A stretch of DNA of 64,000 bases from the sequence record NC_105825.1; one strand, given 5' to 3'. Within the stretch, counting starts at the first letter, position 1. Each line of letters starts with the position of its first letter. Source of the stretch: Escherichia phage ECOP18. Positions 46,621-60,900 of this stretch are shown here, piece after piece. Made by a program: the position numbers and the translations under genes. The notes beneath the pieces are model-generated. The model searched no databases and was not told the DNA's origin. It worked only from the letters and a program-made list of their open reading frames with translations.

Positions 46621-46732
46621 TTGTAACCTCCTCTAACCAGTACCATTATACTAATTTTGGAGGAAAATTACAATGTGTTTTTAAAGATTTTCTTTGGAGC
46701 ACAAAATTTTGTCGTTGTCAAGAAGAATTTTA

Positions 46733-46766
46733 GATAAAAGAAAAGCCAGGGTCGTTAAACCCTGGC
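46733..46766 (-). terminator. rho-independent terminator
   Basis: agccaggg...ccctggct hairpin followed by U-run on minus strand. Confidence 0.5.
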
Positions 46767-46776
46767 TTAAAACTAC

Positions 46777-47376
46777 TTACTCTTCTTTATGCTCCTCTGA
46801 TTGAGGTAACTGGGCTTTATTATACTGCTCAGATCGATATTTTGCCAAGATTTCAATACGCTTATGGATTTCTTTGCTATCTAGATAGATATTTTTGTTG
46901 TATTTTACCATCTCGTCGATTTCGTCTATTGAGAAGAACGGATAGTAGACATCTAGCATCATATCTTCTACTAACTTGTTGTAAGATTCATAGGCTTTCT
47001 TGATTTCTTGACCCTTCTCACAGAATCCGCCAGAGAACGTGTGTCCCATTAGCGTAGCATGTGGATGTACTACCCATCCATGACAGGATAGGAAAATTGT
47101 ACAGTAAGCAGAAGCACTAGGACCAACCAGATGCCCTATAACTGTTCCACGGCAATTAGCAATTAAGTTAGATAACTGTGCAGCAGTATCAACATAACCA
47201 CCTGGGCCATTAATCATCAGATTAATTTCGTCGTCCTCATTTGCCTGCATAAGTACCATTGATAAATCACGGTATTCATCCGGCGGGCCTAATTCTTCAT
47301 CAAAGAAAAAGGTATACTCATTAGATTGGCGAATGGAGTGAAACAGGTTAGTCTTTTCTTCTTTTTTATTAGTCAT
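46777..47376 (-). CDS. ClpP-like serine protease (199 aa)
   Basis: Weak resemblance to Clp protease fold (GPGG, Ser/His context). Confidence 0.35.
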   Translation of the reverse strand: MTNKKEEKTNLFHSIRQSNEYTFFFDEELGPPDEYRDLSMVLMQANEDDEINLMINGPGGYVDTAAQLSNLIANCRGTVIGHLVGPSASAYCTIFLSCHGWVVHPHATLMGHTFSGGFCEKGQEIKKAYESYNKLVEDMMLDVYYPFFSIDEIDEMVKYNKNIYLDSKEIHKRIEILAKYRSEQYNKAQLPQSEEHKEE

Positions 47377-47388
47377 AGCGATCCTTGA

Positions 47389-48141
47389 TTATCCAACTAG
47401 TGGTTCTAGCTCTAAGTCACAGAAGTTATAAACTTCTAGTTTAAGGTTATTGATACCATCGAATTTATTAACTAATTCGTGAGTAATATATTTTGCAGGA
47501 ATACCACTTTCAGATGGATGATCTGATTTAATAGTGAACTTCTGCTCAGCGGGTACTACATTTACTATCAAAGAATCCATATCTAAATGGTTTGTTTCTC
47601 TGAGTAACTCTCCTTCATTGGGGAATCTAACATCTGTTATTACGGCGACATCTGGGTCGTCTTTAAAGATGGATTGCTCCAGAATTATGAGCCAAATGCG
47701 TTCATGCACCAGCTGCCTTCCTAGCTCTGTCCCTACGAGCTGTAACATTTTTCTCGGAGAAATAAATAAACTATAAAGTCCGTCTTCTTTATTCTCTGAG
47801 ATAAGTTGTTGAGGATTAAGATATTTTTCCTCAAAAATAGGCCAAACGTACGAGAAGTCTTCAAACTTATCGATACCGTACTTAAACCACACATCTCTGG
47901 CTCGCTCCAATTGAGATTGTGTGACCGTAAACCATTGGTCAATCTCTTTTCCTCTGCGCTCTCCTAGAAACTCTGGAGTTACACCGAGGATTACGGATGC
48001 AAGTTCATAAACAGGCTTAGCAAAACTATAACGACGGGATAAACACGTTGGATACGTGTCATTACACCAATCGATAATTAATTTTGCAACGGTATCTTTT
48101 CCCGAACCAGCTTCACCATGTAAACCAACTAATACTGACAT
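47389..48141 (-). CDS. deoxynucleoside monophosphate kinase-like P-loop protein (250 aa)
   Basis: Walker A GEAGSGKDT. Confidence 0.5.
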   Translation of the reverse strand: MSVLVGLHGEAGSGKDTVAKLIIDWCNDTYPTCLSRRYSFAKPVYELASVILGVTPEFLGERRGKEIDQWFTVTQSQLERARDVWFKYGIDKFEDFSYVWPIFEEKYLNPQQLISENKEDGLYSLFISPRKMLQLVGTELGRQLVHERIWLIILEQSIFKDDPDVAVITDVRFPNEGELLRETNHLDMDSLIVNVVPAEQKFTIKSDHPSESGIPAKYITHELVNKFDGINNLKLEVYNFCDLELEPLVG

Positions 48142-48494
48142 TAATCTTTCCTATTGTTAATTGGTGGATAGTAAACTAAGCAACGTTTTTCTTGTAAATC
48201 TTGGCGATAGAAGCAAACCATACCAGTCAGTCGTGAGATATATGAATATTCTGCCTCGCGGCATTTTGCCAACATATTCCAATCTTTATATGGTACAACA
48301 ACTACTACGCCATCTTCGCCATTTGTAGCTAATTTCTTTTCGAATTTGAAATCAAAGCTACAAGGCTGAAGTCCTTTAGGCCAGTCTACATGAGCTTGCT
48401 TTAACTCATGAGATGACTCTGGTTTTATTTCTTCTGCACAGCCTGTGATTGTGATTGCGGCTGCGAGCAGTATTCCAAGTTTCCAGTTAAACAC
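48141..48494 (-). CDS. outer-membrane lipoprotein, o-spanin candidate (117 aa)
   Basis: Signal peptide with lipobox ITGC; overlaps i-spanin candidate. Confidence 0.4.
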   Translation of the reverse strand: MFNWKLGILLAAAITITGCAEEIKPESSHELKQAHVDWPKGLQPCSFDFKFEKKLATNGEDGVVVVVPYKDWNMLAKCREAEYSYISRLTGMVCFYRQDLQEKRCLVYYPPINNRKD

Positions 48495-48874
48495 GCTAAT
48501 CTTTCCTCGAACTCTTTACTCTGCTTTTTAGCAATTAATGTTACCAATCCAGGCTTTGCAGCTATAATATCTTGGCGACTAAGAGCTTTATCTAACTGCT
48601 TAATCTTTTTGTCTAGATCTGCTTGCGAAATATTATTCATTGTGAAATACTGATTCATTCTAGTCTCACGAAGTTCACTTTCAGCTTTCACCTTATTAAG
48701 GGAAGCCTCTAGAGAAGAAATCTTTTTAGTAGCTACCGCAAGATCTCCCGCTAAAGTCTCCACTTTATCTACTAAGTGATAAGCACCGAATCCGATGCCT
48801 ATCGCTAGACCTGCTCCCAGGATATACCACTTACCGTGCCATATTCCTGAAAGAAGTTTTTGTATCAAATCCAT
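48425..48874 (-). CDS. i-spanin candidate (149 aa)
   Basis: N-terminal TM helix followed by coiled coil. Confidence 0.4.
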   Translation of the reverse strand: MDLIQKLLSGIWHGKWYILGAGLAIGIGFGAYHLVDKVETLAGDLAVATKKISSLEASLNKVKAESELRETRMNQYFTMNNISQADLDKKIKQLDKALSRQDIIAAKPGLVTLIAKKQSKEFEERLACLTGNLEYCSQPQSQSQAVQKK

Positions 48875-49529
48875 GCGCTGCTAACCTGTCTTTATCTGAT
48901 ACTTTAATCATATCAGGCTCACCAGTTCCTAGTACACCGAAGATATACTGTTCGAGAACTTGGTGTAAACGGTATAAGTTACTTTCAATTTCCTGCCACG
49001 GAATACCGGACTGATGGAAACGAATGTTAGTCTGAATTACGAAGTTACGAACATCATCGTTATCGTTCTTCTTAATACCTTTCACATATGCAATTGGTAC
49101 ACGCAGTTCGGATAAGATGCGTTCTGCTTTAGGTTTTGCTTCAGCGAGCAAATCACGCATTGTTTCACGAACATCTCCGAGACTCTTATCCATTAAGTAA
49201 GAGCGAGCATGTAATCCCATCTCTTCCATTTTATCGAACATAGAGTCGAGGTTGAACGTTTTGAAGCTAAATGCTGGATGCCAGCAGTATAGCTCGTGTA
49301 ACCAGTAAACTTCACCTGCAACAAATAGTGGGTTTACAAAATATTCGAAATCACCACGGAAAGATAGCGAACCATCACGAAATACCTGGCGACTATGCAC
49401 GATGTTCTTTTCTGCATCATCAGTTACTTTAACCAGTAACTCTTCAGTTTTACGCTCCCAAACACGATCTGGGTCGAACAAACTGTTCTGCAAATCATAC
49501 ACATCGGCGAACTTAGAAATAATCCTCAT
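48831..49529 (-). CDS. hypothetical protein (232 aa)
   Basis: ORF track. Confidence 0.45.
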   Translation of the reverse strand: MRIISKFADVYDLQNSLFDPDRVWERKTEELLVKVTDDAEKNIVHSRQVFRDGSLSFRGDFEYFVNPLFVAGEVYWLHELYCWHPAFSFKTFNLDSMFDKMEEMGLHARSYLMDKSLGDVRETMRDLLAEAKPKAERILSELRVPIAYVKGIKKNDNDDVRNFVIQTNIRFHQSGIPWQEIESNLYRLHQVLEQYIFGVLGTGEPDMIKVSDKDRLAAHGFDTKTSFRNMAR

Positions 49530-49560
49530 ATTTAATCCTCTTGCCTCAATCTATAAACAT

Positions 49561-49589
49561 ATTATACAAAAGTTTGGGCATCTAAGCAA
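49561..49589 (-). promoter_or_regulatory. early sigma70-type promoter (-35 TTGCTT, 17 bp, -10 TATAAT)
   Basis: Read on minus strand. Confidence 0.6.
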
Positions 49590-49683
49590 CTAAAATTTTA
49601 TTATAAAAATAGCCCAGTCGCAAAAGTGCAGGCTGGGCTTTGTCATTATTTGCTTTTGCTAGTAAGCTGACTTAGTGTCAATC

Positions 49684-50064
49684 TTATGTAATATTAGTTT
49701 TTCTAGCTTTGTGCAGTACCCCTGCATTTCTCCATAACTTAATATCATCTACTGTTTCTTTATAAGGAGCTATGGTAAAACCTAGTGGGCCAGCACTAAA
49801 TAATCCTAAGAATCCTATTGCACGCATATAGAATAAGCATTCTTCGCCTGTCATTCCTTCAACTGCTTTTCTTTGTTTTTCGTTTTCAAACTCGTGCTCC
49901 TTGTTGTCTATACGAAGGTGTTTAATGAACCATTCAGCAGAATATTCATCTAAGTGTCTAAGTATAGCTACTGCATACCCAGCGCCGATTAAAAACCAAG
50001 TGGTAACAAGAATTAGTACTATAGTCATATAATCTCCAGTTAAGGTCAGCGACCAACTCACCAC
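49684..50064 (-). CDS. membrane protein (126 aa)
   Basis: Hydrophobic helices. Confidence 0.4.
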   Translation of the reverse strand: MVSWSLTLTGDYMTIVLILVTTWFLIGAGYAVAILRHLDEYSAEWFIKHLRIDNKEHEFENEKQRKAVEGMTGEECLFYMRAIGFLGLFSAGPLGFTIAPYKETVDDIKLWRNAGVLHKARKTNIT

Positions 50065-50138
50065 TTACCGCACTAAGGGGCACGACTCCCTTATCCGTAA
50101 CAGTTGCAGGTGACGCAACTCGGTCCTACGCGAGTTCT

Positions 50139-50423
50139 TTAGGTATTCTGCATTTCAGCTTTAAATTTTTTCATATTACGAGTCTTTCTATAAAAGAAAA
50201 ACACATATGTTGGGCCTAGAAGAATATCCACAATAAATATCATAGATCTAGCACATCTGAGTAATGTTTTATCATCAAGAGGAGGCAGATCTAACGGTCG
50301 AGTTTTATGTATAACGTATAATATTACATCTTTATTCTTAGAAATATACAGATCATCAACCAAGCTGTAAATAGCTACTATAGACCCAATGACGAACCAA
50401 AGAGCAAATGGAGAAATAATCAT
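50139..50423 (-). CDS. membrane protein (94 aa)
   Basis: Hydrophobic helices. Confidence 0.4.
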   Translation of the reverse strand: MIISPFALWFVIGSIVAIYSLVDDLYISKNKDVILYVIHKTRPLDLPPLDDKTLLRCARSMIFIVDILLGPTYVFFFYRKTRNMKKFKAEMQNT

Positions 50424-50716
50424 TTCAGATCCTTTTCATTAATTAGAATATTAGTAAACAGTGGAGTAACCCCTAGACTCATAGTAGGTCCAAACGTATT
50501 CATGGCTACCCACAATTGCATAGTGATCATCCCATCTTTAATCTCCGGATCTTTATATTCTTCGATACGTTTTTTGGCAAAGGCAACTACATCTGGAATA
50601 CTACCGTTCTTTACAACATGATCATGCCAAAACTGAGCGTTTTCACTTCGTAGGAATGTTAAAACATCCTTAGTTGCTGGAATCTGCACTGTGCTATTGA
50701 TGTTTAGTCTTTTCAC
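50420..50716 (-). CDS. hypothetical protein (98 aa)
   Basis: ORF track. Confidence 0.4.
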   Translation of the reverse strand: MKRLNINSTVQIPATKDVLTFLRSENAQFWHDHVVKNGSIPDVVAFAKKRIEEYKDPEIKDGMITMQLWVAMNTFGPTMSLGVTPLFTNILINEKDLK

Positions 50717-51113
50717 GTTCTTCTCTCCGACGTTTAGATTCTTTCATCATATGAGCTGCTACAACTTCGTGGTAGTAGTCATTAATGTTATCTTCTGGCA
50801 AGAAATGCTTAATAGTCTCTAGCTGACAAATAACTCGATGAAGATGGCTATTTGGTAGACATAATTTCATCCCCGCAACAAATCCAGAGAAGCCTGGAAC
50901 ACTGAACATAGGTTGGGCTTCTACTCTACCTTCAGAGTTGATATTAAGCTCAATTGAGATACCCATTTTCATGCTGTAAAGCTGGCAGTACTCCCCATTA
51001 CCAGACCTTGACCAAATAGTGAAGTCCTCATCAATTTGATCTTGGATTTCTGTAATTGCAAATTTAATTCTAGGGTCTAAATTATTCATCTTCACCTTCA
51101 AAGTCGCAATCAT
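50694..51113 (-). CDS. hypothetical protein (139 aa)
   Basis: ORF track. Confidence 0.4.
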   Translation of the reverse strand: MIATLKVKMNNLDPRIKFAITEIQDQIDEDFTIWSRSGNGEYCQLYSMKMGISIELNINSEGRVEAQPMFSVPGFSGFVAGMKLCLPNSHLHRVICQLETIKHFLPEDNINDYYHEVVAAHMMKESKRRREEREKTKHQ

Positions 51114-51447
51114 AACGACAAGTAAAAGAATCAGAACTATTAGTACGTTGAGTGGTTATTTCACCGCGTTTGCTAATAGTAACGGCTGGAGTAGAGAAGT
51201 TTTTATTAGTATATATTTCTACTTTACCATTACGTTCCTTAACATCACGAACTTTACCATACTCGGTAATAATGCCGTTCTGTTGGACTTTAACATTACC
51301 ATTTTTCATAGAAACTTTGGTAGATGCCAGAGAACCGAAACTAACTGCGGAGATCATCAGTGCAATAATAAACTTATTCATCTTCATCCTCCCCACTACA
51401 ATCACGACATACATCATAATCGTTGAAAGAACGTTCGTGAGCTTCAC
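51082..51447 (-). CDS. secreted protein (121 aa)
   Basis: N-terminal signal-like hydrophobic segment. Confidence 0.4.
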   Translation of the reverse strand: MKLTNVLSTIMMYVVIVVGRMKMNKFIIALMISAVSFGSLASTKVSMKNGNVKVQQNGIITEYGKVRDVKERNGKVEIYTNKNFSTPAVTISKRGEITTQRTNSSDSFTCRYDCDFEGEDE

Positions 51448-51655
51448 ACCACCAAGAACAAGAATCGCAGAGAAACATTTCGGTTTTCTCCAGTGCTTGA
51501 CCTAAAAGATCATCAGCTTCCTCAGCAGTAATCTTCAATCCGCACACATCTGCCACACGTTCTTTAATTAAACGACCTGCTTCATGGTAGGACATACAGG
51601 TTCCCGCAACATCATGTTCAAGAACATGAATGGCACAGTCTAGGCGATTTTTCAT
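51374..51655 (-). CDS. Cys-rich acidic protein (93 aa)
   Basis: CDSCSWWC and CRDC motifs. Confidence 0.4.
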   Translation of the reverse strand: MKNRLDCAIHVLEHDVAGTCMSYHEAGRLIKERVADVCGLKITAEEADDLLGQALEKTEMFLCDSCSWWCEAHERSFNDYDVCRDCSGEDEDE

Positions 51656-51683
51656 TTCAAACCTCTCTCATCAATTTATAAAC

Positions 51684-51712
51684 ATATTATAGCAAGAAAA
51701 GAGAGGTTTAGC
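51684..51712 (-). promoter_or_regulatory. early sigma70-type promoter (-35 TTGCTA, 17 bp, -10 TATAAT)
   Basis: Read on minus strand. Confidence 0.6.
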
Positions 51713-51731
51713 AAATGAATTATTTCAGAAT

Positions 51732-52079
51732 TTAGTCATAGCACCACCATAACCCACGCTTACGCATGTCATGATCGCGATTATAATCATAATTTTCTGG
51801 ATCTTTCATCACGCGGTGGAGTTCTTGACGATTCCCTTGACGAACCATTTTATTAGAATGCCACTTAACATTCTTACTAATAGAATTCCAGTTATAACCA
51901 TCCTTTTTCTCATTACGAATGGTTGCTTCCTTCATTTCTTTCTTGATGTCGTCCCAGGATTTGGCATAAATAACACGAATCCAGTAGCCATTTTCTTTGA
52001 AGAAAGAATATTCTTGAGAAAAGTGTTCTTTAGACTTCCACCACTGATCACCAGATTGTTTACGATAAGTACGGCTCAT
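51732..52079 (-). CDS. hypothetical basic protein (115 aa)
   Basis: ORF track. Confidence 0.4.
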   Translation of the reverse strand: MSRTYRKQSGDQWWKSKEHFSQEYSFFKENGYWIRVIYAKSWDDIKKEMKEATIRNEKKDGYNWNSISKNVKWHSNKMVRQGNRQELHRVMKDPENYDYNRDHDMRKRGLWWCYD

Positions 52080-52154
52080 ATTACCTCCATTAAGTCTTTT
52101 AAATTAACCTAATGTGGATGAATTTTATTATACATAGATTATTTACCTATATAC

Positions 52155-52190
52155 AGAAAAACCCCAGACTACTTATTCAATAGCTGGGGT
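52155..52190 (-). terminator. rho-independent terminator
   Basis: accccag...ctggggt hairpin followed by U-run on minus strand. Confidence 0.5.
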
Positions 52191-52200
52191 TTGTTATTAA

Positions 52201-52515
52201 TTACAGATCGGGGCGTTCATCTTCGAAACAGCCTGAGCTGATTCCTTCTCCGAATCCTACAAAGCCATCAAATTCATCATTTGAGATGCCCATAATCATC
52301 GCTTCCATTTTCCTGATCTCCGAGGTTTTCATGCCTGCTTTACTATTCTTATAGTACTTGCGAGGGTTCCCGCACATCCAACAAGAACAGATGCAAGGAG
52401 TAGTAGTGATAATACCTAACCGCTTAGGGCTTTCTTCATGTGGAAAGACTGTCCAGTACTTCTTGCGGTTGTTCTTCACACGTTGCCGGTGATGGCGTCT
52501 TAATGCTCGATCCAC
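52201..52515 (-). CDS. hypothetical Cys-containing protein (104 aa)
   Basis: ORF track. Confidence 0.4.
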   Translation of the reverse strand: MDRALRRHHRQRVKNNRKKYWTVFPHEESPKRLGIITTTPCICSCWMCGNPRKYYKNSKAGMKTSEIRKMEAMIMGISNDEFDGFVGFGEGISSGCFEDERPDL

Positions 52516-52596
52516 ACATTTCTCCTAAAACTTGGGAGATAAACGGAGTTTGCTCGACTACCTTACGTAGTTCGTAGAAACCGTACCCAAACCCCA

Positions 52597-52965
52597 TTAC
52601 ATCGCCTGAGTAAATGTACGACTAATAACATCGTTCTGCTGTTCACGCGTCAGTGCGTTAAAACGTACAGCATAGCCAGAGACACGGATGGTCAACTGAG
52701 GATATTTTTCAGGATGTTTCTGCGCATCCAAAAGCTGATCACAGCTTAACACATTGACATTTAGGTGCTGACCACCTTCGATTTGAGGGGCGACTTCCAC
52801 TTTGACTTCACGGAAGGCTTCGGGATCGAATTGTGGTGTGATACCTTCTAGATCTTCAACTAGAACTTTCTGTTTAAGTTCACCGTTGTCGGAGTATAGC
52901 TGAATAATCTGATTTTCATGAACAAGGTTAATTACGCCAGATTTAAGATTTTGATATGCTTTCAT
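52597..52965 (-). CDS. autonomous glycyl-radical cofactor, GrcA/YfiD-like (122 aa)
   Basis: C-terminal glycyl-radical fingerprint [19 protein letters not shown]. Confidence 0.6.
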
Positions 52966-53007
52966 TAGATCTCCCCGATGTTAGAATTTGGCTCAGCTAT
53001 TTATTCT

Positions 53008-53202
53008 TTATACTTTTCCATAGTATACGGAAACTGTCTTACCAGTTTGGTTCATGACATATGCTACTTCATCTTCTTTTAAAAAGATGGCTTGGTCTAC
53101 TCCAACTATAGCCAATCTTTTATTTCTAGGATTAAAGCTTACACTTTTGCCTGTATGAATCTGTTCCCCATTCTTGGCTGACATTATTTTAATTGTTAAC
53201 AT
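53008..53202 (-). CDS. hypothetical protein (64 aa)
   Basis: ORF track. Confidence 0.35.
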   Translation of the reverse strand: MLTIKIMSAKNGEQIHTGKSVSFNPRNKRLAIVGVDQAIFLKEDEVAYVMNQTGKTVSVYYGKV

Positions 53203-53239
53203 AGCTGCTCCTAAAGTTAGCTATCTCTAGCTCTTTTAA

Positions 53240-53315
53240 TGGTAGTTAGTAGTGGATTTGAACCACTGTAGTCGCTCCGTATGAAGGAGGTGCATAACCA
53301 CTCTGCCAACTAACT
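53240..53315 (-). tRNA. tRNA, anticodon CAT (Met, fMet or Ile2)
   Basis: Manual fold: 7-bp acceptor AGTTAGT/ACTAACT, T-arm AGTGG-TTCAAAT-CCACT, loop TTCATAC, CCA encoded. Confidence 0.55.
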
Positions 53316-53482
53316 AGTTAATTCTTTATAGGTTAGATCTAGAAGATCTTTCTTACTGATAAGTCCTTCTCTATATTGGTCAATAAACATATCTATTCTA
53401 GAGTTCTCTGAGACTTCTATATCAGAAAGTTCAGCAAATATTTTTGCAAGTTTATCAATATCTTCCATACATAACCTTAATT

Positions 53483-53559
53483 TGGTACTCCGGGAGGGAT
53501 TTAAACCCCCGATCTCTCGGTTATCAGCCGAGTGCTTTAGATCGCTAAGCTACCGAAGC
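53483..53559 (-). tRNA. tRNA-Ile (anticodon GAT)
   Basis: Manual fold: acceptor GCTTCGG/CCGGAGT, anticodon stem CTCGG/CCGAG, loop CTGATAA. Confidence 0.65.
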
Positions 53560-53560
53560 A

Positions 53561-53788
53561 TTAACATTTTACAGCAGAACGTTTGCCATTTCTAGGTGCA
53601 CCTGGAAGTCGTGCACGTTCTGCCATTCTTCTCTTAATCTTTGAGATATTTTCTAGTGTTTGTTCCTCCGGCTTAATACCTGAAACACTACACCACTGAT
53701 TACCATCCCATGCGGTAATGATCATAACACCATTACTCATGATCTTTTCTGTAAAAGTAATCCTCATTATAGCAACTCGTCTAAGCAA
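53561..53788 (-). CDS. hypothetical protein (75 aa)
   Basis: ORF track. Confidence 0.35.
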   Translation of the reverse strand: MLRRVAIMRITFTEKIMSNGVMIITAWDGNQWCSVSGIKPEEQTLENISKIKRRMAERARLPGAPRNGKRSAVKC

Positions 53789-54060
53789 GAGGTATATTTA
53801 AGTTTACCATCTTTATCTACTTTGATTTCGACTTCCGCTCGTGGTACTTGATGAACTACACCATGAATCATCTTATAGCGAATGCCTTTAGCTGGTTCAT
53901 GCTCTTTTGGAAATACTTGCTTAACCGTTACTACCTTAAAACCCTCACGCGGTGTTAACACTACTACTTGATCACCTTCTTTGATCTTCCAAGAGCCAGG
54001 AAATTCATAGGTATAGCGTTGACCACCAGTTTGGAACACAACAGAAAGATAACGTTTCAT
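53767..54060 (-). CDS. hypothetical protein (97 aa)
   Basis: ORF track. Confidence 0.4.
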   Translation of the reverse strand: MKRYLSVVFQTGGQRYTYEFPGSWKIKEGDQVVVLTPREGFKVVTVKQVFPKEHEPAKGIRYKMIHGVVHQVPRAEVEIKVDKDGKLKYTSCLDELL

Positions 54061-54090
54061 TTGGCTTCCCTCTCATTAATTTATATAAAT

Positions 54091-54119
54091 ATTATAACAA
54101 TAAATAAGAGAGAAAGCAA
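54091..54119 (-). promoter_or_regulatory. early sigma70-type promoter (-35 TTGCTT, 17 bp, -10 TATAAT)
   Basis: Read on minus strand. Confidence 0.6.
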
Positions 54120-54127
54120 ATGAATTT

Positions 54128-54322
54128 TTAATAAAGTTTAGTCACTTCATAAACTATACTACGAGATTCTTTATTACGTTCTATTAAATTAGAATATGCT
54201 TTTTCAGCTTCATTTTTAGTATTAAAGTCTATAACGTGGGAGGTATTCGCTCTATTTGATTGACTATACCAGATAACTACTAATAATTTAAACATAATAG
54301 TCCTTAAGTTGGTGCTGGGCAC
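54128..54322 (-). CDS. hypothetical protein (64 aa)
   Basis: ORF track; 3' end abuts tRNA. Confidence 0.3.
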   Translation of the reverse strand: MPSTNLRTIMFKLLVVIWYSQSNRANTSHVIDFNTKNEAEKAYSNLIERNKESRSIVYEVTKLY

Positions 54323-54396
54323 AGGATTCGAACCTGTAACGGGATTACTCCTCCTGATTACAAATCAGGTGCATTCAACCATTCTGCCGACCCAGC
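54310..54396 (-). tRNA. tRNA with long variable region; anticodon loop reads TGT (identity uncertain)
   Basis: Manual fold: acceptor GCTGGGT/GCCCAGC, T-arm ACAGG-TTCGAAT-CCTGT, anticodon stem CCTGA/TCAGG, 15-nt variable region. Confidence 0.45.
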
Positions 54397-54561
54397 AGAA
54401 CCCGTTATTTCAACGGGATTTCTTTTTCAATAATAGGAGACTTATCAGTCATAACCGCCATTGCCATTTGTTGTAGAAATTCAAAGGTGAAGGCTACACG
54501 TTCTTCACCAATCTCTACTTCTACACGTTTCTTTTGTTTATCGATCTTGACTTTTAGGTTA

Positions 54562-54813
54562 TCAGCCATTAGAGAGTACAGTACTGGTAGTTGGCAATAC
54601 TACAGATGAAGCAACAGTGTTTAAATGCTTTCTCCAGTCTAGGTTAAATTGTTTTCGAAACTCTTCATAAGGTTCTTCTGGATAAAAGCTAAAACCTCCT
54701 TTCTCATCATTCAGGATAACAGAGCCGTCAGTTTGTTCGTATGCTCGGTATGTTTCTCCAATAACAATAACTCGTTTTTCGGTACTTTTATTACGAAACT
54801 CAAAAACGTGCAT
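54562..54813 (-). CDS. hypothetical protein (83 aa)
   Basis: ORF track. Confidence 0.35.
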   Translation of the reverse strand: MHVFEFRNKSTEKRVIVIGETYRAYEQTDGSVILNDEKGGFSFYPEEPYEEFRKQFNLDWRKHLNTVASSVVLPTTSTVLSNG

Positions 54814-54829
54814 AATGTTTCCTTAAAGT

Positions 54830-54905
54830 TGGAGCGGCTAGAGGGAATCGAACCCTACTCAGCGAGGCTTGGAAGGCCTGCGGCACAACCCGTGTGCTTA
54901 ACCGC
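54830..54905 (-). tRNA. tRNA-Gly (anticodon TCC)
   Basis: Manual fold: acceptor GCGGTTA/TAGCCGC, loop CTTCCAA. Confidence 0.55.
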
Positions 54906-54913
54906 TTATTGTT

Positions 54914-54989
54914 TGGCTGGAGAAGGAGGAATCGAACCTACCATTAACGGAGTCAAAGGCCGTTGTGCTAACCGTTACACTACTCTCCA
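54914..54989 (-). tRNA. tRNA-Gln (anticodon TTG)
   Basis: Manual fold: acceptor TGGAGAG/TTCTCCA, discriminator G, loop CTTTGAC. Confidence 0.6.
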
Positions 54990-54995
54990 ATTATT

Positions 54996-55071
54996 TGGCT
55001 GGGATGCCACGGATCGAACGTGGAACCTTCGGAGTCAGAGGCCGACGATCTGCCAATTGATCTACATCCCA
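54996..55071 (-). tRNA. tRNA-Gln (anticodon CTG)
   Basis: Manual fold: acceptor TGGGATG/CATCCCA, D-stem GATC/GATC, loop CTCTGAC. Confidence 0.6.
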
Positions 55072-55083
55072 ATAATTTTTATT

Positions 55084-55278
55084 CTACGGAAAAATTGTTG
55101 TTGGCTCAGATTCTTCCAAACGTTTGCCTTCATGATCAACACGAATAACGCCGCATCCTTCGCAAATCACAACTGCACCATAACCTTCTTTGACCTCAGC
55201 TTCTGTAATCAAACCAGAAAGATCACCAGTATCTTTACCCCACATATCAATGGAGCATTGTTTGCAGAAATCAGCCAT
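55084..55278 (-). CDS. zinc-ribbon protein (64 aa)
   Basis: CKQC...CEGC motifs. Confidence 0.4.
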   Translation of the reverse strand: MADFCKQCSIDMWGKDTGDLSGLITEAEVKEGYGAVVICEGCGVIRVDHEGKRLEESEPTTIFP

Positions 55279-55303
55279 ATTTTATTTCCTATTTAAGTTA
55301 ATT

Positions 55304-55380
55304 TGGGGTGGCTAGTGAAATTCGAATCCACATAGGCCTGATTCACAATCAGGATCATTAACCAATTATGATATAGCCAC
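55304..55380 (-). tRNA. tRNA-His (anticodon GTG)
   Basis: Manual fold: acceptor GTGGCTA/TAGCCAC, anticodon stem CCTGA/TCAGG, loop TTGTGAA. Confidence 0.65.
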
Positions 55381-55603
55381 AATTGAAAACTCGCAGGGTT
55401 AGCGAAACCTTCCTCAATTAGCATGTTCTAGAATACTAATCAAGTTATCTCCTATTGCACGCAGCTCAAGACGAGTACGAATTTTCAATTGTGGCGGCTC
55501 TCAGAAACTCTTCTACTCTAGTCTTAGCAGCTTACTCCCGAACGCATGTCGGGGAAGTCTTACTAAGCGCATCAAATAGCACCGTTACACTTTGAGCCAT
55601 TGG

Positions 55604-55700
55604 TGTATTAAGAAGCAGAAGGACTTGAACCTTCACGAGATAGACCATTTATCTCAGCCGCTTTATGAGGTATGTTGCAGGGAGTGGATGTTCCCTATAA
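55604..55700 (-). ncRNA. tRNA-like element with canonical T-arm but no matching acceptor stem
   Basis: T-arm GAAGG-TTCAAGT-CCTTC and hairpin GAGATA-AATGGTC-TATCTC; no 5' acceptor partner found. Confidence 0.25.
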
Positions 55701-55746
55701 ACCTTTTAGGCAGCCCCGTCTACCGATTCCGGCATACTTCAGGATT

Positions 55747-55841
55747 TGGAGGTAGGTAAGGGGATCGAACCCTTACACCGTATCACTACGATCAACCGAT
55801 TTCAAGTCGGAGTCCAGCGCCAGCCATTGGATTGACCTACC
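55747..55841 (-). tRNA. tRNA-Ser (anticodon TGA), long variable arm
   Basis: Manual fold: acceptor GGTAGGT/ACCTACC, T-arm AAGGG-TTCGATC-CCCTT, loop CTTGAAA. Confidence 0.6.
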
Positions 55842-55853
55842 ATATAAATTGTT

Positions 55854-55944
55854 TGGCGGAAGAGGAGAGATTTGAACTCTCAAGCCGTTTTACCAGTCAG
55901 CCACTTTCCAAGCGGTTTTCGTCACCAATTCGATTTGCTCTTCC
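55854..55944 (-). tRNA. tRNA-Ser (anticodon GGA), long variable arm
   Basis: Manual fold: acceptor GGAAGAG/CTCTTCC, T-arm GAGAG-TTCAAAT-CTCTC, loop TTGGAAA. Confidence 0.5.
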
Positions 55945-55980
55945 AATAACAAGATGATGCCTCTATCACACCAGGCAGTT

Positions 55981-56053
55981 ACGCCTCGCTGGGATTCGAA
56001 CCCATTAAAACAGCTCAACCGAGATAGTAGGTTTAATTTACTCTGACCATCAA
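55981..56053 (-). ncRNA. tRNA-like element (GGGTTCGAATCCC T-arm) without recognisable acceptor stem
   Basis: T-arm at 55989-56005; no complementary 5' strand within tRNA distance. Confidence 0.25.
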
Positions 56054-56056
56054 ATT

Positions 56057-56133
56057 TGGTGCGTGACAAGGGATTCGAACCCTCAAAACCCGACTTCTAA
56101 GGACGGTATGTATGCCAATTCCATCAATCACGC
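56057..56133 (-). tRNA. tRNA, anticodon loop reads TAG (Leu-type anticodon on short-variable-arm scaffold)
   Basis: Manual fold: acceptor GCGTGAT/GTCACGC, T-arm GAGGG-TTCGAAT-CCCTT, loop CTTAGAA, 5-nt variable loop. Confidence 0.5.
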
Positions 56134-56138
56134 GTATT

Positions 56139-56217
56139 TGGTGGAGAATAACGGAATCGAACCGTTCTGATGTCCTCGGTGCAAGCGAGGTGTCCACTCC
56201 ATGCAGACCCATTCCCC
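56139..56217 (-). tRNA. tRNA-Ala (anticodon TGC)
   Basis: Manual fold: anticodon stem CCTCG/CGAGG, loop CTTGCAC, acceptor with G3-U70 pair. Confidence 0.6.
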
Positions 56218-56455
56218 AAATTATTTAGTTTACTAAGGCTATTAGCTCGGCGTAACTACAGCACCTTCGCTTCGAGCGGAAGGAACCGCGTCATCTCGCA
56301 AACCCGATACACTATTCAGTTGCCACTGAATCTAGTGGACTAATCTAGAACTTCTCCCGAATCGTAGGGATCGTGCTTTTTGGCAGCCAGTCCTAGGTCG
56401 AACTAATACCTTAGTGAACTATGATGAGGATTTCTCCTCATCAATTTATATAAAT

Positions 56456-56484
56456 ATTATAACAAGAAATTAAGCATTAAGCAA
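56456..56484 (-). promoter_or_regulatory. early sigma70-type promoter feeding leftward tRNA cluster
   Basis: -35 TTGCTT, 17-bp spacer, -10 TATAAT read on minus strand. Confidence 0.6.
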
Positions 56485-56502
56485 CTGCGTTTTTCTTGAA
56501 AT

Positions 56503-56581
56503 TGGTAGATCGCCTGGGACTCGAACCCAGAACCTTCCGATTAAAAGTCGGATGCTACTAAACCTATTGAGCTAGCGATCT
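56503..56581 (-). tRNA. tRNA-Lys (anticodon TTT)
   Basis: Manual fold: acceptor AGATCGC/GCGATCT, anticodon stem TCCGA/TCGGA, loop CTTTTAA. Confidence 0.65.
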
Positions 56582-56769
56582 ATTAGTAACCATTATACAC
56601 TTCTTTAATAGAGTGGACTTTTAAGTAAGGGTGATTAGTACTAAACTCTACCATTACTTCATCCCAATTTTTACCATAATGAGCGAGTAAGGATTTTGAT
56701 GTATTCTTACCTAACCGTTTGTCACTTACTACTAATCGAAATACTTTCATTTCGAAATCCTCTATTAAA

Positions 56770-56847
56770 ATGGAAGCGGGTGCAGGAATCGAACCTACCT
56801 CTTTCTAGCTTATGAGACTAGCGATCTCTACCAGAGATCTAACCCGC
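56770..56847 (-). tRNA. tRNA-Met-like (anticodon CAT), unpaired position 1-72
   Basis: Manual fold: loop CTCATAA, T-arm GTAGG-TTCGATT-CCTGC. Confidence 0.5.
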
Positions 56848-56853
56848 AATTGT

Positions 56854-56930
56854 TTGGTCAGTGCGGCAGGACTCGAACCTGCGACCCGAAGCATCCAAGG
56901 CTCCCACGCTACCAACTGCGCTACGCACTG
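56854..56930 (-). tRNA. tRNA-Pro (anticodon TGG)
   Basis: Manual fold: perfect acceptor CAGTGCG/CGCACTG, loop CTTGGAT. Confidence 0.65.
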
Positions 56931-56939
56931 TTAATTCTT

Positions 56940-57137
56940 TTATTGTGGAGGAATATTAATAATTCGTCCGTCTACACAATAAACGGTACTAGGAATTGTA
57001 CTATATATGTAGAAATTCTTTATATTACTCTCTCCGCCACAGAAATTTTTAGCAAATTCATACTCTTTATTAATGGTTGAGTCAAGTTTAAAACAACCAG
57101 TAAGTAGGAATACAGACAGCAGTAAAACTTTTTTCAT
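56940..57137 (-). CDS. small lipoprotein (65 aa)
   Basis: Signal peptide with lipobox LTGC; embedded in tRNA array. Confidence 0.5.
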   Translation of the reverse strand: MKKVLLLSVFLLTGCFKLDSTINKEYEFAKNFCGGESNIKNFYIYSTIPSTVYCVDGRIINIPPQ

Positions 57138-57169
57138 TTTGCTTTCCTTCTCAACACTTTATAAGGTAT

Positions 57170-57198
57170 ATTATACAGAGAATTAAGCATAATAGCAA
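57170..57198 (-). promoter_or_regulatory. early sigma70-type promoter (-35 TTGCTA, 17 bp, -10 TATAAT)
   Basis: Read on minus strand. Confidence 0.6.
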
Positions 57199-57347
57199 AT
57201 GAATTTTTAATAAATTTACTTATTGTGTAGGCCACCTGGAGGCTACCAACCCCACGGCTGACAAAGAAGTTTGCGAGACCTCTCTTAAGTGCCAGAATAG
57301 ACCCGCCGATCTATCGGAACCTACATAATAAGTAAACTTTATAGTGT

Positions 57348-57468
57348 CATTCTAGACAGGACTCGAACCTGTTATCACTTGTGCGGACTTACGAGAACCA
57401 TTCTTTCACTCGAATCGAACGAGCTTCTGCCCTCGCCAAGCTGGTTTCCCCATCAACCACGCTAGAAT
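57348..57468 (-). ncRNA. structured tRNA-like region (two T-arm-like hairpins inside a 7-bp inverted repeat)
   Basis: attctag...ctagaat terminal pairing, internal ACAGG-ACTCGAA-CCTGT and ACTCG-AATCGAA-CGAG hairpins. Confidence 0.25.
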
Positions 57469-57632
57469 GTTTGATTGTTTTCAGTGCAAGAGTCCGAGTC
57501 TTGGACACGACCGCTTCGCAAGTACATAGGCAGCTTATCATGAGTCAGCACTTCCGAATTGCTAGCTCCGTGTTCTGCACTGAAATTTTATTAGTTTAAC
57601 CGTAAAGTATTATCTACTTCACCATTAATTGT

Positions 57633-57938
57633 TCAGCATTCTTCTGGGATTGCTGGTGTAGCCTTATATTCCCACCATTCAGAACCGTCGTATTCACCAC
57701 GTTCTAACCAAGTTCCATCAGTAAACCACACGTTACCATAAAGCAATTGCCCACCGAAACCAGAATCATATTTAAAGTCTAGATTATTTAGAAAATCTTC
57801 AATATCTTTTTCTGTATAACCTACGGGTAACACCCAAACTTCTTTGTCCCCATAATAACCGAATTCTATCTTAATACACTTAACTTCAGAATTAATATTC
57901 TTTAAGGCAAGTAACAATTCTTCTTTAGCATTAATCAT
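57633..57938 (-). CDS. hypothetical protein (101 aa)
   Basis: ORF track. Confidence 0.4.
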   Translation of the reverse strand: MINAKEELLLALKNINSEVKCIKIEFGYYGDKEVWVLPVGYTEKDIEDFLNNLDFKYDSGFGGQLLYGNVWFTDGTWLERGEYDGSEWWEYKATPAIPEEC

Positions 57939-57964
57939 AGCATATTTCTCGTACTAGTTTAATT

Positions 57965-58041
57965 TGGCGCGACCGATGGGATTTGAACCCACATTCTCTC
58001 CCGTGACAGGGGAGTACCATTACCAAGCCAGCCCCGGTCGC
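57965..58041 (-). tRNA. tRNA-Asp (anticodon GTC)
   Basis: Manual fold: acceptor GCGACCG/CGGTCGC, anticodon stem CTCCC/GGGAG, loop CTGTCAC. Confidence 0.7.
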
Positions 58042-58050
58042 ATAATTCAT

Positions 58051-58236
58051 TTACTCAGCTTTGAGTTTTTCAATAGCTGCATTAAGTTCTTTAAGAAACT
58101 TTTTTCGTACATTAAGACGGTTGAGACTTACTAGTATATCATGTTTAAGTTCTTCGATGTATTTCTTCTCAACTTCAATATTGTTGATAGTGCTATCACG
58201 ATGAACTTCTAGCTGTGCAATTACATTCTTGGACAT
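58051..58236 (-). CDS. hypothetical coiled-coil protein (61 aa)
   Basis: ORF track. Confidence 0.35.
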   Translation of the reverse strand: MSKNVIAQLEVHRDSTINNIEVEKKYIEELKHDILVSLNRLNVRKKFLKELNAAIEKLKAE

Positions 58237-58337
58237 GCTTGTTTCCTCAGTTATTAATGAAAATGGTATCTGTGACTGAATTCGATGTCAGCAATGATAG
58301 CTGGTTGGCTACCGGTTTACTTAACTCTACACAGAAT

Positions 58338-58421
58338 TTGGCGGGCCGTGTAGGATTCGAACCTACGTTGTCTTTCGACATGGATTAACAGTCCACCGCC
58401 AAACCGCTTGGCTAACGACCC
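58338..58421 (-). tRNA. tRNA with extended variable hairpin; anticodon loop reads GTT (Asn-type)
   Basis: Manual fold: acceptor GGGTCGT/ACGGCCC, T-arm GTAGG-TTCGAAT-CCTAC, loop CTGTTAA, variable hairpin GTC-GAAA-GAC. Confidence 0.45.
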
Positions 58422-58572
58422 TAAATTTATATTGCTGACTAGGATTTTCACCTAGACGGAGTTAGCACCGTAGCGTGTAGCGGCATACCTCTCCAAACCG
58501 TGCCTCATCTTTCAATTACGGAGACAGTGTTCCTACGCGTGCCTGAATTGATTTAACAACTCTTTCAGCAAA

Positions 58573-58649
58573 TTGGACGACCGCATGAGATTTGAACTCA
58601 CATAAAAAGGATTTGCAATCCTTCGCCTAAGCCATTCAGCCAACGGTCG
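58573..58649 (-). tRNA. tRNA-Cys (anticodon GCA)
   Basis: Manual fold: acceptor CGACCGT/GCGGTCG, loop TTGCAAA. Confidence 0.6.
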
Positions 58650-58718
58650 ATTTATCTTGTTCTGTCATGTTGCTTCTCCAGTTCAATTTATGTAATTATT
58701 ATACAGAACTTTTGGAAA

Positions 58719-59006
58719 CTAAGCAACTACATTTTTTAAAAATTTGATGCCTTTCTTTTTCTTCTTATATTTCCACGTTAAGGGATTCTGTCGATTATGA
58801 ACGCTTGAGATCTTTGTCTCGTCAAAGTTCTTCAATATCATGTAATCACAGGATAATTGTTCTAATGGAATGTGATCACCGTCAAAAGCGTATACATAAG
58901 GCTGTTGACTAGCACGATAATGATAGACTTTGTTAATTCTACGTTTCAGCAACTTATCCGCGCAGTAAATAAAGAAGTTTTCAGGATGCATCAGCAGCTC
59001 CCTCAA
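58719..59006 (-). CDS. hypothetical protein (95 aa)
   Basis: ORF track. Confidence 0.4.
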   Translation of the reverse strand: MRELLMHPENFFIYCADKLLKRRINKVYHYRASQQPYVYAFDGDHIPLEQLSCDYMILKNFDETKISSVHNRQNPLTWKYKKKKKGIKFLKNVVA

Positions 59007-59089
59007 TTTGGTGCACCCTGTTCGTATCGAACGAACCTCTCAAGCTCTTCAGGCAAGCGCTAATCCATCTCAGCTAAAGGTGCAAATTT

Positions 59090-59166
59090 TGGCAAACCTA
59101 CTAGGACTTGAACCTAGACCGTACGGTTTTGGAGACCGACATGCTGTCCAGTAACACTCTAGGAAT
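59090..59166 (-). tRNA. tRNA-Trp-like (anticodon CCA), imperfect acceptor stem
   Basis: Manual fold: T-arm CTAGG-TTCAAGT-CCTAG, loop CTCCAAA; two acceptor mismatches. Confidence 0.4.
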
Positions 59167-59173
59167 GCAGGAT

Positions 59174-59250: not shown

Positions 59251-59257
59251 TTAAATT

Positions 59258-60894: not shown

Positions 60895-60900
60895 GGAAGA

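What the first reader, a model, noticed from the sequence alone, without database searches (positions are those of the whole stretch)
52597..52965. Phage-encoded GrcA/YfiD-like autonomous glycyl-radical cofactor
The C-terminus carries the glycyl-radical fingerprint [17 protein letters not shown] in a protein of GrcA size. Such a protein could repair oxygen-damaged host pyruvate formate-lyase and support anaerobic or microaerobic infection, as expected of a gut phage.
Basis: partly seen in the sequence, partly recalled or inferred. Interest (0 to 1): 0.5.

Follow-up and report, generated by a model that had tools for sequence, protein, structure and literature searches.

The report
Known T5 phage GrcA-like spare part
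This is a real and strongly conserved small gene of T5-like phages that copies the radical-carrying tail of the host enzyme pyruvate formate-lyase, but it has been annotated in phage T5 since about 2005 and its T4 relative was characterised biochemically in 2001, so it is ordinary rather than new.

Summary
Window 52597..52965 (minus strand) encodes a 122-aa protein. [17 protein letters not shown] sits at residues 94-110, and Gly97 aligns with the radical glycine of E. coli PflB (G734) and GrcA (G102).

The window is a T5-like phage (Tequintavirus). The gene is the orthologue of T5.056/T5p055, which GenBank records already call a pyruvate formate-lyase related protein or GrcA. An identical protein exists in phage SUT_E520.

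Homologues occur in 1581 phage records. One is T4 Vs.6/Y06I, 52% identical over the full length. Published work shows that PFL activase activates Y06I and that Y06I restores oxygen-cleaved PFL.

Across 33 T5-like copies the median dN/dS is 0.06, so the gene is functional.

It has not been tested for T5.

The only modestly new point is context. T5 also carries the formate-dependent anaerobic ribonucleotide reductase gene nrdD. In jumbo and Aeromonas phages the GrcA-like gene lies inside the nrdD-nrdG cluster. This suggests the phage keeps host PFL working partly to supply formate for its own dNTP synthesis.

Novelty: already known. Interest: low.

The parts
52597..52965 (-). CDS of the GrcA-like protein (122 aa plus TAA stop). 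It is the orthologue of T5.056 / T5p055.
   Evidence: Searches show the ORF. It is 90% nt identical to T5.056. It matches Pfam PF01228 and phrog_1209 over its full length at E=1e-46.
52971..52976 (-). Shine-Dalgarno sequence GGGGAG, 5 nt upstream of the ATG.
   Evidence: Read directly from the sequence. The start MKAYQ is shared with T4 Vs.6.
52786..52965 (-). N-terminal half (aa 1-60), the divergent region. In E. coli YfiD the corresponding half is needed for binding cleaved PFL and for efficient activation.
   Evidence: dN/dS is 0.10. hhalign links aa 32-61 to the T4/jumbo-phage type at E=1e-5, and that type matches the bacterial GrcA N-half at E=4e-11. The role in YfiD comes from PMC8683613.
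52600..52785 (-). C-terminal PFL-like module (aa 61-122). It comprises the beta-strand [11 protein letters not shown], a helix, the glycyl-radical hairpin and a final helix.
52666..52686 (-). RVSGYAV (aa 94-100), the glycyl-radical fingerprint. The Gly97 codon GGC at 52675-52677 aligns with PflB G734 and GrcA G102.
   Evidence: It is invariant in 39 homologues.
52741..52743 (-). Cys75 codon (TGT). The other 32 T5-like copies compared have Arg here (PflB R712, GrcA R80).
   Evidence: Cys75 is shared with T5_ev212 and SUT_E520. The position is R/K/Q in the wider family.
54066..54131 (-). Homologue of T5 early promoter P11, the likely start of the transcription unit carrying tRNA-Ile, tRNA-Met, small ORFs and this gene.
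   Evidence: 97% identical to the annotated T5 P11 promoter.
52157..52189 (-). Homologue of the T5 rho-independent terminator downstream of T5.055, the likely end of the unit.
   Evidence: 100% identical over 33 nt to the annotated T5 terminator. My simple terminator scan did not pick it up.

Best explanation
The gene encodes a phage version of the autonomous glycyl-radical cofactor, the 'spare part' protein GrcA/YfiD. It belongs to the Vs.6/Y06I type found in T4-like, T5-like and jumbo phages.

Proposed mechanism, by homology:
- The protein is made early in infection from a host-RNAP promoter, in an operon that also carries phage tRNAs.
- When oxygen cleaves the host's active pyruvate formate-lyase (PflB) at G734, the phage protein docks through its PFL-like beta-strand and N-terminal half.
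- It presents its RVSGYAV loop to the host activase PflA. The phage encodes no activase. PflA installs a radical on Gly97.
- The loop then returns to the PFL active site and hands the radical to Cys419. This restores conversion of pyruvate and CoA to acetyl-CoA and formate.

Inferred benefit to the phage: T5 shuts off host gene expression and destroys host DNA (established knowledge), so no new host GrcA or PflB can be made. Keeping PFL running under microaerobic or fluctuating oxygen preserves ATP production through acetyl-CoA. It also preserves formate, the reductant of the phage's own class III ribonucleotide reductase NrdD.

Shown here: homology, conservation of every residue of the fingerprint, purifying selection, stand-alone architecture, and genomic context.

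Inferred: activation by PflA, binding to cleaved PFL, and the physiological benefit.
For: Family and alignment evidence is.

Full-length 52% identity to T4 Vs.6/Y06I is shown. Y06I and YfiD are the two validated spare-part proteins: PFL-AE activates them and they restore O2-cleaved PFL (PMC8683613). In vivo, GrcA rescues formate production by PflB G734A (PMC12338860).

Across 33 T5-like copies the median dN/dS is 0.059, with 0.10 for the N-half and 0.02 for the C-half.

The AF2 model's C-terminal half matches the YfiD NMR structure and the PFL Gly-radical domain.

No PflB body, PflA or NrdG is encoded in the window or in T5 20-80 kb.

The gene lies between conserved copies of the T5 early promoter P11 and a terminator.

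T5 carries nrdD, T5.099. Class III RNRs use formate as reductant (PMC4493059).

The GrcA-like gene lies inside nrdD-nrdG clusters in three IMG/VR jumbo-phage loci, in Klebsiella phage RCIP0023, and in three Aeromonas T4-like phages.

Phage-database counts for the T5 types are similar: 434 records with GrcA at >=80% identity and 390 with NrdD at >=80% identity.
Against: There is no experiment on any T5-type protein.

The NCBIfam GrcA equivalog model TIGR04365 scores 120 bits, below its 170-bit cutoff, and matches only aa 50-122.

The first ~31 residues show no statistically significant similarity to bacterial GrcA, and YfiD's N-half matters for binding.

This window's copy carries an unusual R75C change.

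In T5-like and T4-like phages the gene is not physically linked to nrdD. The formate link therefore rests on co-occurrence and on linkage in other lineages. I could not compute a proper presence/absence matrix.
Confidence: 0.75

Rival explanations
1. The protein is a decoy or inhibitor. It titrates host PflA, or occupies PFL without supporting catalysis, and so shuts down formate/acetyl-CoA fermentation or redirects pyruvate during infection.
For: A decoy would also need the conserved RVSGYAV activase-binding loop and the PFL-docking strand. The divergent N-terminal 31 residues and the sub-threshold TIGR04365 score allow altered behaviour.
Against: The T4 homologue restores PFL activity rather than inhibiting it (PMC8683613). 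The C-terminal 62 residues, including positions beyond the activase contact, are under very strong purifying selection (dN/dS 0.02) and 77% identical to PflB, as expected for a working replacement part. Linkage with formate-consuming NrdD in other phages argues for keeping formate production going.
Confidence: 0.07
2. It is a spare part mainly for another host glycyl-radical enzyme, above all the PflB paralogue TdcE (2-ketobutyrate formate-lyase), rather than PflB.
For: The 3' half of the gene also matches tdcE at 75% nt identity in E. coli genomes. Several GenBank records label the gene '2-ketobutyrate formate-lyase'. PMC8683613 notes that spare parts for other GREs are conceivable.
Against: The best nucleotide match in all 5426 E. 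coli genomes is pflB at 77-78%. PflB is the abundant enzyme, and it is the only target shown for YfiD and Y06I. Other GRE C-termini are far more distant, with E-values of 1e-11 or weaker.
Confidence: 0.1
3. It is a spare part or radical donor for the phage's own class III ribonucleotide reductase NrdD. This would explain its position between nrdD and nrdG in some phages.
For: The gene sits inside nrdD-nrdG clusters in jumbo and Aeromonas phages. NrdD is also cleaved by oxygen at its glycyl radical (established knowledge).
Against: There is no detectable similarity to the T5 NrdD C-terminus, which carries RRVCGYLG after a zinc ribbon (BLASTP E=5.2). By contrast the protein is 77% identical to the PflB tail. 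The T4 homologue works on PFL.
Confidence: 0.03
4. It is a non-functional captured fragment of host pflB or grcA, a passenger in the variable tRNA region.
For: The 3' half retains 76-78% nt identity to host pflB. The tRNA region of T5 is a mosaic of small ORFs and homing endonucleases.
Against: The frame is intact in all 33 T5-like copies, with dS up to 0.99 and median dN/dS 0.059. The N-terminus and RBS are conserved. The position next to the tRNA cluster is conserved even in a Vibrio member of another Demerecviridae subfamily. The gene is retained in the T5st0 deletion mutant.
Confidence: 0.02

Closest known systems
Bacteriophage T4 Vs.6 / Y06I (autonomous glycyl radical cofactor)
   Same: Both are stand-alone proteins of ~120 aa encoded by a virulent coliphage. 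They share the N-terminal start MKAYQ, are 52% identical over the full length, and fall in the same PHROG (phrog_1209). The RVSGYAV loop is identical. T4 also carries nrdD.
   Different: The C-terminal 62 codons of T4 are 96% nt identical to E. coli K-12 grcA, which indicates a very recent exchange with the host. The T5 type is only 70-76% nt identical to grcA or pflB and forms its own conserved lineage. The T5 type has extra residues in the N-half. The genomic setting differs: a tRNA cluster in T5-likes, and the denV-to-tk (thymidine kinase) region in T4. Only the T4 protein has been tested biochemically.
E. coli GrcA (YfiD), PDB 6owr
   Same: Similar size and two-part layout. The two are 73% identical over aa 51-122. 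The glycyl-radical glycine and the duplicated beta-strand [11 protein letters not shown] are the same. This is the top structural hit. The proposed mechanism is the same.
   Different: The N-terminal ~45 residues are not detectably similar by BLAST or by a direct profile comparison. The protein falls below the TIGR04365 cutoff. It is phage-encoded and expressed from a phage early promoter rather than from the host's own grcA gene.
C-terminal glycyl-radical domain of E. coli pyruvate formate-lyase PflB (residues 698-759)
   Same: 77% aa identity and 76% nt identity. This is the best nucleotide match in every E. coli genome. It is the part that the phage protein is proposed to replace.
   Different: The phage protein lacks the ~690-residue catalytic barrel with Cys418/Cys419, so it cannot be an enzyme on its own. 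GenBank labels such as 'pyruvate formate-lyase' or '2-ketobutyrate formate-lyase' overstate its function.
Class III ribonucleotide reductase NrdD glycyl-radical domain
   Same: It also carries a C-terminal oxygen-sensitive glycyl radical. It is encoded by the same phages, and in some phages by the same gene cluster.
   Different: There is no significant sequence similarity. The motif differs (RRVCGYLG, preceded by a zinc ribbon) and the activase differs (NrdG).

Membership tests
Autonomous glycyl radical cofactor (GrcA/YfiD; NCBIfam TIGR04365, Pfam Gly_radical PF01228) | Small (~14 kDa) stand-alone protein, not the C-terminus of a full-length glycyl-radical enzyme | tested here: met
   The ORF is 122 aa with its own RBS and start. 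tblastn with PflB residues 1-690 finds nothing in the window.
Autonomous glycyl radical cofactor (GrcA/YfiD; NCBIfam TIGR04365, Pfam Gly_radical PF01228) | Glycyl-radical fingerprint RVSGYAV, with the Gly aligned to PflB G734 / GrcA G102 | tested here: met
   Residues 94-100 are identical, and Gly97 sits in an invariant column. Pfam PF01228 scores 63 bits against a cutoff of 22.
Autonomous glycyl radical cofactor (GrcA/YfiD; NCBIfam TIGR04365, Pfam Gly_radical PF01228) | C-terminal ~60 residues closely duplicate PFL 698-759, including the beta-strand retained in cleaved PFL | tested here: met
   77% identity to PflB and 76% to GrcA over 62 aa. [11 protein letters not shown] is conserved. The modelled fold matches 6owr and PFL.
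Autonomous glycyl radical cofactor (GrcA/YfiD; NCBIfam TIGR04365, Pfam Gly_radical PF01228) | N-terminal ~60 residues homologous to the GrcA N-half, which is needed for cPFL binding in YfiD | tested here: inconclusive
   A direct profile comparison is weak: E=0.006 and 6% probability, covering aa 32-61 only. There is a transitive link: T5 type to T4/jumbo type at E=1e-5 over aa 32-61, and T4/jumbo type to bacterial GrcA at E=4e-11 over the full N-half. Residues 1-31 are not established. AF2 predicts similar beta-strand N-halves for both proteins.
Autonomous glycyl radical cofactor (GrcA/YfiD; NCBIfam TIGR04365, Pfam Gly_radical PF01228) | Score above the curated equivalog cutoff of TIGR04365 | tested here: not met
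   The score is 120.2 bits against a cutoff of 170, with a match to aa 50-122 only. This is a model threshold tuned to bacterial GrcA, not a biochemical feature. I therefore file the protein as a phage Vs.6/Y06I-type homologue of GrcA, not as an NCBIfam equivalog.
Autonomous glycyl radical cofactor (GrcA/YfiD; NCBIfam TIGR04365, Pfam Gly_radical PF01228) | Radical installed by PFL activase, and activity of oxygen-cleaved PFL restored | not testable with these tools
   Shown only for E. coli YfiD and T4 Y06I (PMC8683613).
Phage Vs.6/Y06I family (phrog_1209) | Full-length match to the phage family profile | tested here: met
   phrog_1209 matches at E=1.3e-46, aa 1-122 against profile positions 1-121 of 121. 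BLASTP gives 52% full-length identity to T4 Vs.6.
Pyruvate formate-lyase / 2-ketobutyrate formate-lyase (as labelled in many GenBank records) | Catalytic barrel with the Cys418-Cys419 pair (~760 aa) | tested here: not met
   Only the last 62 residues of the TIGR01255 model (positions 683-744 of 744) match, at 83 bits against a cutoff of 994. The window encodes no PFL body.

The most novel reading that the evidence does not exclude
Phage GrcA-like proteins may belong to a phage 'anaerobic dNTP supply' module. By keeping host PFL alive they would secure formate, the reductant of the phage-encoded class III ribonucleotide reductase. This would explain two observations: the gene sits between nrdD and nrdG in jumbo phages and directly after nrdG in Aeromonas T4-like phages, and it co-occurs with nrdD in T5-like and T4-like phages. 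A stronger version is that phage NrdG can itself activate the GrcA-like protein in those phages. I found no paper stating this link in the searchable library. The key 2001 paper is not open to me, so the idea may already have been voiced.
Probability: 0.35. Interest if true: 0.5.

Novelty: already known. Interest (0 to 1): 0.15.

Why it matters
As a finding it mostly confirms existing annotation. T5-like phages carry a GrcA-type spare part, like T4. The practical value is limited to two points. First, many GenBank records mislabel the gene as 'pyruvate formate-lyase', '2-ketobutyrate formate-lyase', 'acetyltransferase-related' or even 'ribonucleotide reductase subunit'. These labels should read 'autonomous glycyl radical cofactor, Vs.6/Y06I type'. 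Second, the gene co-occurs with, and in some lineages is physically linked to, the formate-dependent anaerobic ribonucleotide reductase. This gives a concrete and testable reason why virulent enterobacterial phages keep such a gene. That reason bears on how phages used for therapy or biocontrol replicate in the low-oxygen gut.

Tried and rejected

2. Direct profile-profile homology of the T5 N-half to the bacterial GrcA N-half was not significant. Only a transitive link through the T4/jumbo type exists.

3. Spare part for NrdD: rejected, because there is no similarity.

4. A phage-encoded activase: none was found in the window or in T5 20-80 kb. T5.100, next to nrdD, has no Pfam match.

5. Dispensability from the classic T5st0 deletion: the deletion lies elsewhere and the gene is retained, so this says nothing either way.

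6. A de novo promoter/terminator scan around the gene gave counts no better than shuffled sequence. I relied instead on conservation of the annotated T5 P11 promoter and terminator.

7. Literature on the T5 gene specifically: four searches found nothing.

8. A rigorous GrcA/NrdD co-occurrence test was not possible. The pattern-based NrdD scan confirmed NrdD in 19 of 27 large T5-like IMG/VR contigs that carry the gene. The scan misses divergent copies and the lists are capped, so absence in the rest is uninformative.

9. Origin of the T5-type C-half, pflB or grcA: aa identity is equal (77% against 76%). Nucleotide identity slightly favours pflB for this window (76% against 70%) but not for T5 itself (71.5% against 70.4%). 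This remains unresolved.

Full report
**Observation**

Window 52597..52965 holds an ORF on the minus strand: ATG, 122 codons, TAA. A GGGGAG ribosome-binding site lies 5 nt upstream.

The match is far beyond chance:
- Pfam Gly_radical (PF01228): E=4e-17, 63 bits against a gathering score of 22.
- E. coli GrcA (PDB 6owr): E=1.6e-29.
- C-terminus of E. coli PflB: E=6e-26.

I aligned the protein with E. coli GrcA, the last 127 residues of PflB and T4 Vs.6. Gly97 falls on the radical glycine (PflB G734, GrcA G102), inside an invariant block [19 protein letters not shown]. In a 39-sequence alignment of phage and bacterial homologues, 36 columns are invariant and all lie in the C-terminal half.

**What the window is**

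The surrounding DNA is 98.6% identical to Escherichia phages SUT_E1520 and SUT_E520 and 98.5% identical to T5_ev212 (Tequintavirus, Demerecviridae). Twenty tRNA genes lie just upstream on the same strand, which is the T5 tRNA region. Window 45.6-64 kb maps collinearly on T5 20-40 kb.

The gene is 90% nt identical to T5.056 of the reference genome. There it is annotated 'putative acetyltransferase-related protein, match to IPR001150'. It is also T5p055 of the T5st0 record, annotated 'pyruvate formate-lyase related protein; glycine radical motif PF01228; COG3445'. Other records call it grcA, autonomous glycyl radical cofactor, pyruvate formate-lyase, 2-ketobutyrate formate-lyase, or even ribonucleotide reductase subunit. 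SUT_E520 encodes an identical protein. The gene is therefore already known and annotated, though with inconsistent names.

**Anatomy**

The protein has two halves.

The C-terminal half (residues 61-122) is 77% identical to PflB 698-759 and 76% identical to GrcA 66-127. It keeps two known features. One is the strand [11 protein letters not shown], which in YfiD duplicates a strand of cleaved PFL. The other is the RVSGYAV loop, which is the activase substrate.

The N-terminal half (residues 1-60) is much more divergent. BLAST finds no similarity to E. coli GrcA there. The NCBIfam GrcA equivalog model matches only residues 50-122 and scores 120 bits against a cutoff of 170.

The protein does match the phage family phrog_1209 end to end at E=1e-46. 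It is 52% identical over its full length to T4 Vs.6/Y06I and shares the start MKAYQ.

Profile comparisons restricted to the N-halves gave three results:
- The T4/jumbo-phage type is clearly homologous to the bacterial GrcA N-half (97% probability, E=4e-11, 59 columns).
- The T5 type links to the T4/jumbo type only over residues 32-61 (E=1e-5).
- The first ~31 residues of the T5 type remain unassigned.

**Is the gene functional?**

I compared 33 T5-like copies: the window, three GenBank phages and 29 IMG/VR contigs. There were 31 distinct DNA sequences and 19 distinct proteins.
- All copies are intact.
- Synonymous divergence reaches 0.99.
- Median dN/dS is 0.059 overall, 0.10 for the N-half and 0.02 for the C-half.

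Both halves are therefore under purifying selection, which excludes a decaying host fragment.

The position at the edge of the tRNA cluster is conserved even in Vibrio phage KIT04, a member of another Demerecviridae subfamily.

This window's copy has Cys75 where the other 32 copies have Arg. The wider family has R, K or Q at this position, so I treat the change as a minor lineage variant. T5_ev212 and SUT_E520 share it.

**Expression context**

The annotated T5 early promoter P11 is 97% conserved at window 54131..54066. The annotated terminator downstream of T5.055 is 100% conserved at 52189..52157.

The likely transcription unit on the minus strand runs in this order:
1. P11
2. T5.058 homologue
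3. small ORF
4. tRNA-Ile
5. small ORF
6. tRNA-Met
7. 64-aa ORF
8. GrcA-like gene
9. T5.055 homologue
10. terminator

My generic promoter/terminator scan was uninformative.

**Mechanism**

Published work cited in PMC8683613 reports the following:
- E. coli YfiD and T4 Y06I receive a glycyl radical from the PFL activating enzyme.
- Both bind oxygen-cleaved PFL and restore its activity.
- These are the only two validated spare-part proteins.
- YfiD's N-half is needed for binding and for efficient activation.

In vivo, GrcA restores formate production to PflB G734A (PMC12338860).

By homology the T5-type protein should do the same, using the host's PflA. I found no PflA- or NrdG-like activase and no PFL body in the window or in T5 20-80 kb.

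One inference rests on established knowledge: T5 shuts off host gene expression and degrades host DNA. The infected cell then cannot replace damaged PflB or make more GrcA, which gives a reason for the phage to bring its own copy.

**A contextual lead**

T5 also encodes the class III (anaerobic) ribonucleotide reductase NrdD, T5.099. Class III RNRs characterised so far, including that of T4, take their reducing equivalents from formate (PMC4493059). Formate is the product of PFL.

The GrcA-like gene is physically tied to the anaerobic RNR genes in two other phage lineages:
- In three IMG/VR jumbo-phage loci (345-357 kb) and in Klebsiella phage RCIP0023 the order is nrdD, GrcA-like, DUF4326, nrdG.
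- In Aeromonas phage Ah1 and two related contigs the order is nrdD, nrdG, then GrcA-like. In Ah1 the GrcA-like start overlaps the end of nrdG, and nrdC and nrdH follow.

In T5-like and T4-like phages the genes are not within 10 kb of each other, but both are present. Record counts in the phage collection are similar:
- T5-type GrcA at >=80% identity: 434 records.
- T5-type NrdD at >=80% identity: 390 records.
- Any GrcA-like homologue: 1581 records, against 2652 with NrdD.

A pattern-based scan confirmed NrdD in 19 of 27 large T5-like IMG/VR contigs that hold the gene. This is a lower bound because of the method.

The GrcA-like protein shows no similarity to the NrdD C-terminus, which carries RRVCGYLG after a zinc ribbon. 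It is therefore not a spare part for NrdD. The more plausible link is metabolic: keep PFL working and formate stays available for phage dNTP synthesis. I found no statement of this link in the searchable literature. I cannot read the 2001 paper, so I rate the lead as suggestive only.

**Comparison and membership**

The protein works like GrcA/YfiD and is a member of the phage Vs.6/Y06I family. It meets the structural definitions of an autonomous glycyl-radical cofactor: it stands alone, it has the fingerprint, and it has the PFL-duplicating C-half. It fails the NCBIfam equivalog threshold because of its divergent N-half. It is not a pyruvate or 2-ketobutyrate formate-lyase, because it has no catalytic barrel.

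**Verdict**

- Observation: confirmed.
- Interpretation: supported by homology to an experimentally characterised phage protein.
- Novelty: already known.
- Interest: low. The nrdD linkage is a small, testable addition.

Noticed in passing
L002:4175-4360 (T4 vs.6) compared with L004:14726-14911 (E. coli K-12 grcA): The last 62 codons of T4 vs.6/Y06I are 96% nt identical to E. coli K-12 grcA, with 95% identity at third positions. The N-terminal half is phage-like and AT-rich. This looks like a very recent recombination or gene conversion between host grcA and the T4 gene. The T5-type gene shows nothing similar (70-76% nt identity).
   Followed up: partly
L039:8039-11082; L093:2104-5082; L010:367-3384; L070 and L090 around 7.2-10.3 kb: The GrcA-like gene is embedded in the anaerobic ribonucleotide reductase cluster. 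In ~350-kb jumbo phages the order is nrdD, grcA-like, DUF4326, nrdG. In Aeromonas T4-like phages the order is nrdD, nrdG, then grcA-like, followed in Ah1 by nrdC and nrdH.
   Followed up: partly
proteins P0077, P0100, P0104, P0108, P0112, P0113, P0119, P0120: Many metagenome-derived enterobacterial GrcA sequences combine a typical GrcA N-half with a C-terminal tail that carries PflB-specific residues (MNREMLLDAME.PEKY...TKEQQQDVITRTFTQSM). These could reflect grcA/pflB gene conversion in some Enterobacteriaceae, or chimeric assemblies on ~1-kb contigs.
   Followed up: no
window 52974-53240, ORF 53008..53202 (-): About 265 bp carrying a 64-aa ORF lie between tRNA-Met and the GrcA-like gene. In T5 itself the tRNA-Met gene ends only 13 nt upstream of the gene. 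The ORF has no Pfam match. T5_ev212 annotates it as hypothetical.
   Followed up: partly
window 52436..52597 (-) and 52201..52515 (-): A 53-aa ORF starts at the GrcA stop codon with a TAATG overlap and runs into the 5' end of the T5.055 homologue. That homologue is 104 aa, basic and Cys-rich, and reads in another frame. T5_ev212 annotates the 53-aa ORF. The T5 reference annotates only T5.055. Neither ORF has a Pfam match.
   Followed up: no
window 53240-60979 (-): ARAGORN calls twenty tRNA genes, all on the minus strand, interleaved with small ORFs. Several T5 tRNAs annotated in relatives (Gly, two Ser, Val) are not called here, and homing-endonuclease genes present in T5 (hegC, hegD, hegE) appear to be absent, judging from the gaps in the T5-to-window map.
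   Followed up: no
window 51732..52079 (-): The T5.054 homologue is a full-length member of Pfam DUF7295 (E=2e-53), a family of unknown function.
   Followed up: no
L006:8962-11167 (T5 nrdD region, outside the window): T5 encodes NrdD, but I found no NrdG-like activase in T5 20-80 kb or in the window. The ORF after nrdD (T5.100) has no Pfam match. T5 therefore appears to depend on host activases for both of its glycyl-radical proteins.
   Followed up: partly
window 1905-22811 compared with 45623-63994: Large minus-strand ORFs of 949 and 1226 aa and others, at the scale of late or structural genes though I did not annotate them, lie upstream of the early tRNA region in one 64-kb window. In T5 the early region sits near the left end. 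The source record is therefore probably circularly permuted, or assembled with a single copy of the terminal repeat.
   Followed up: no
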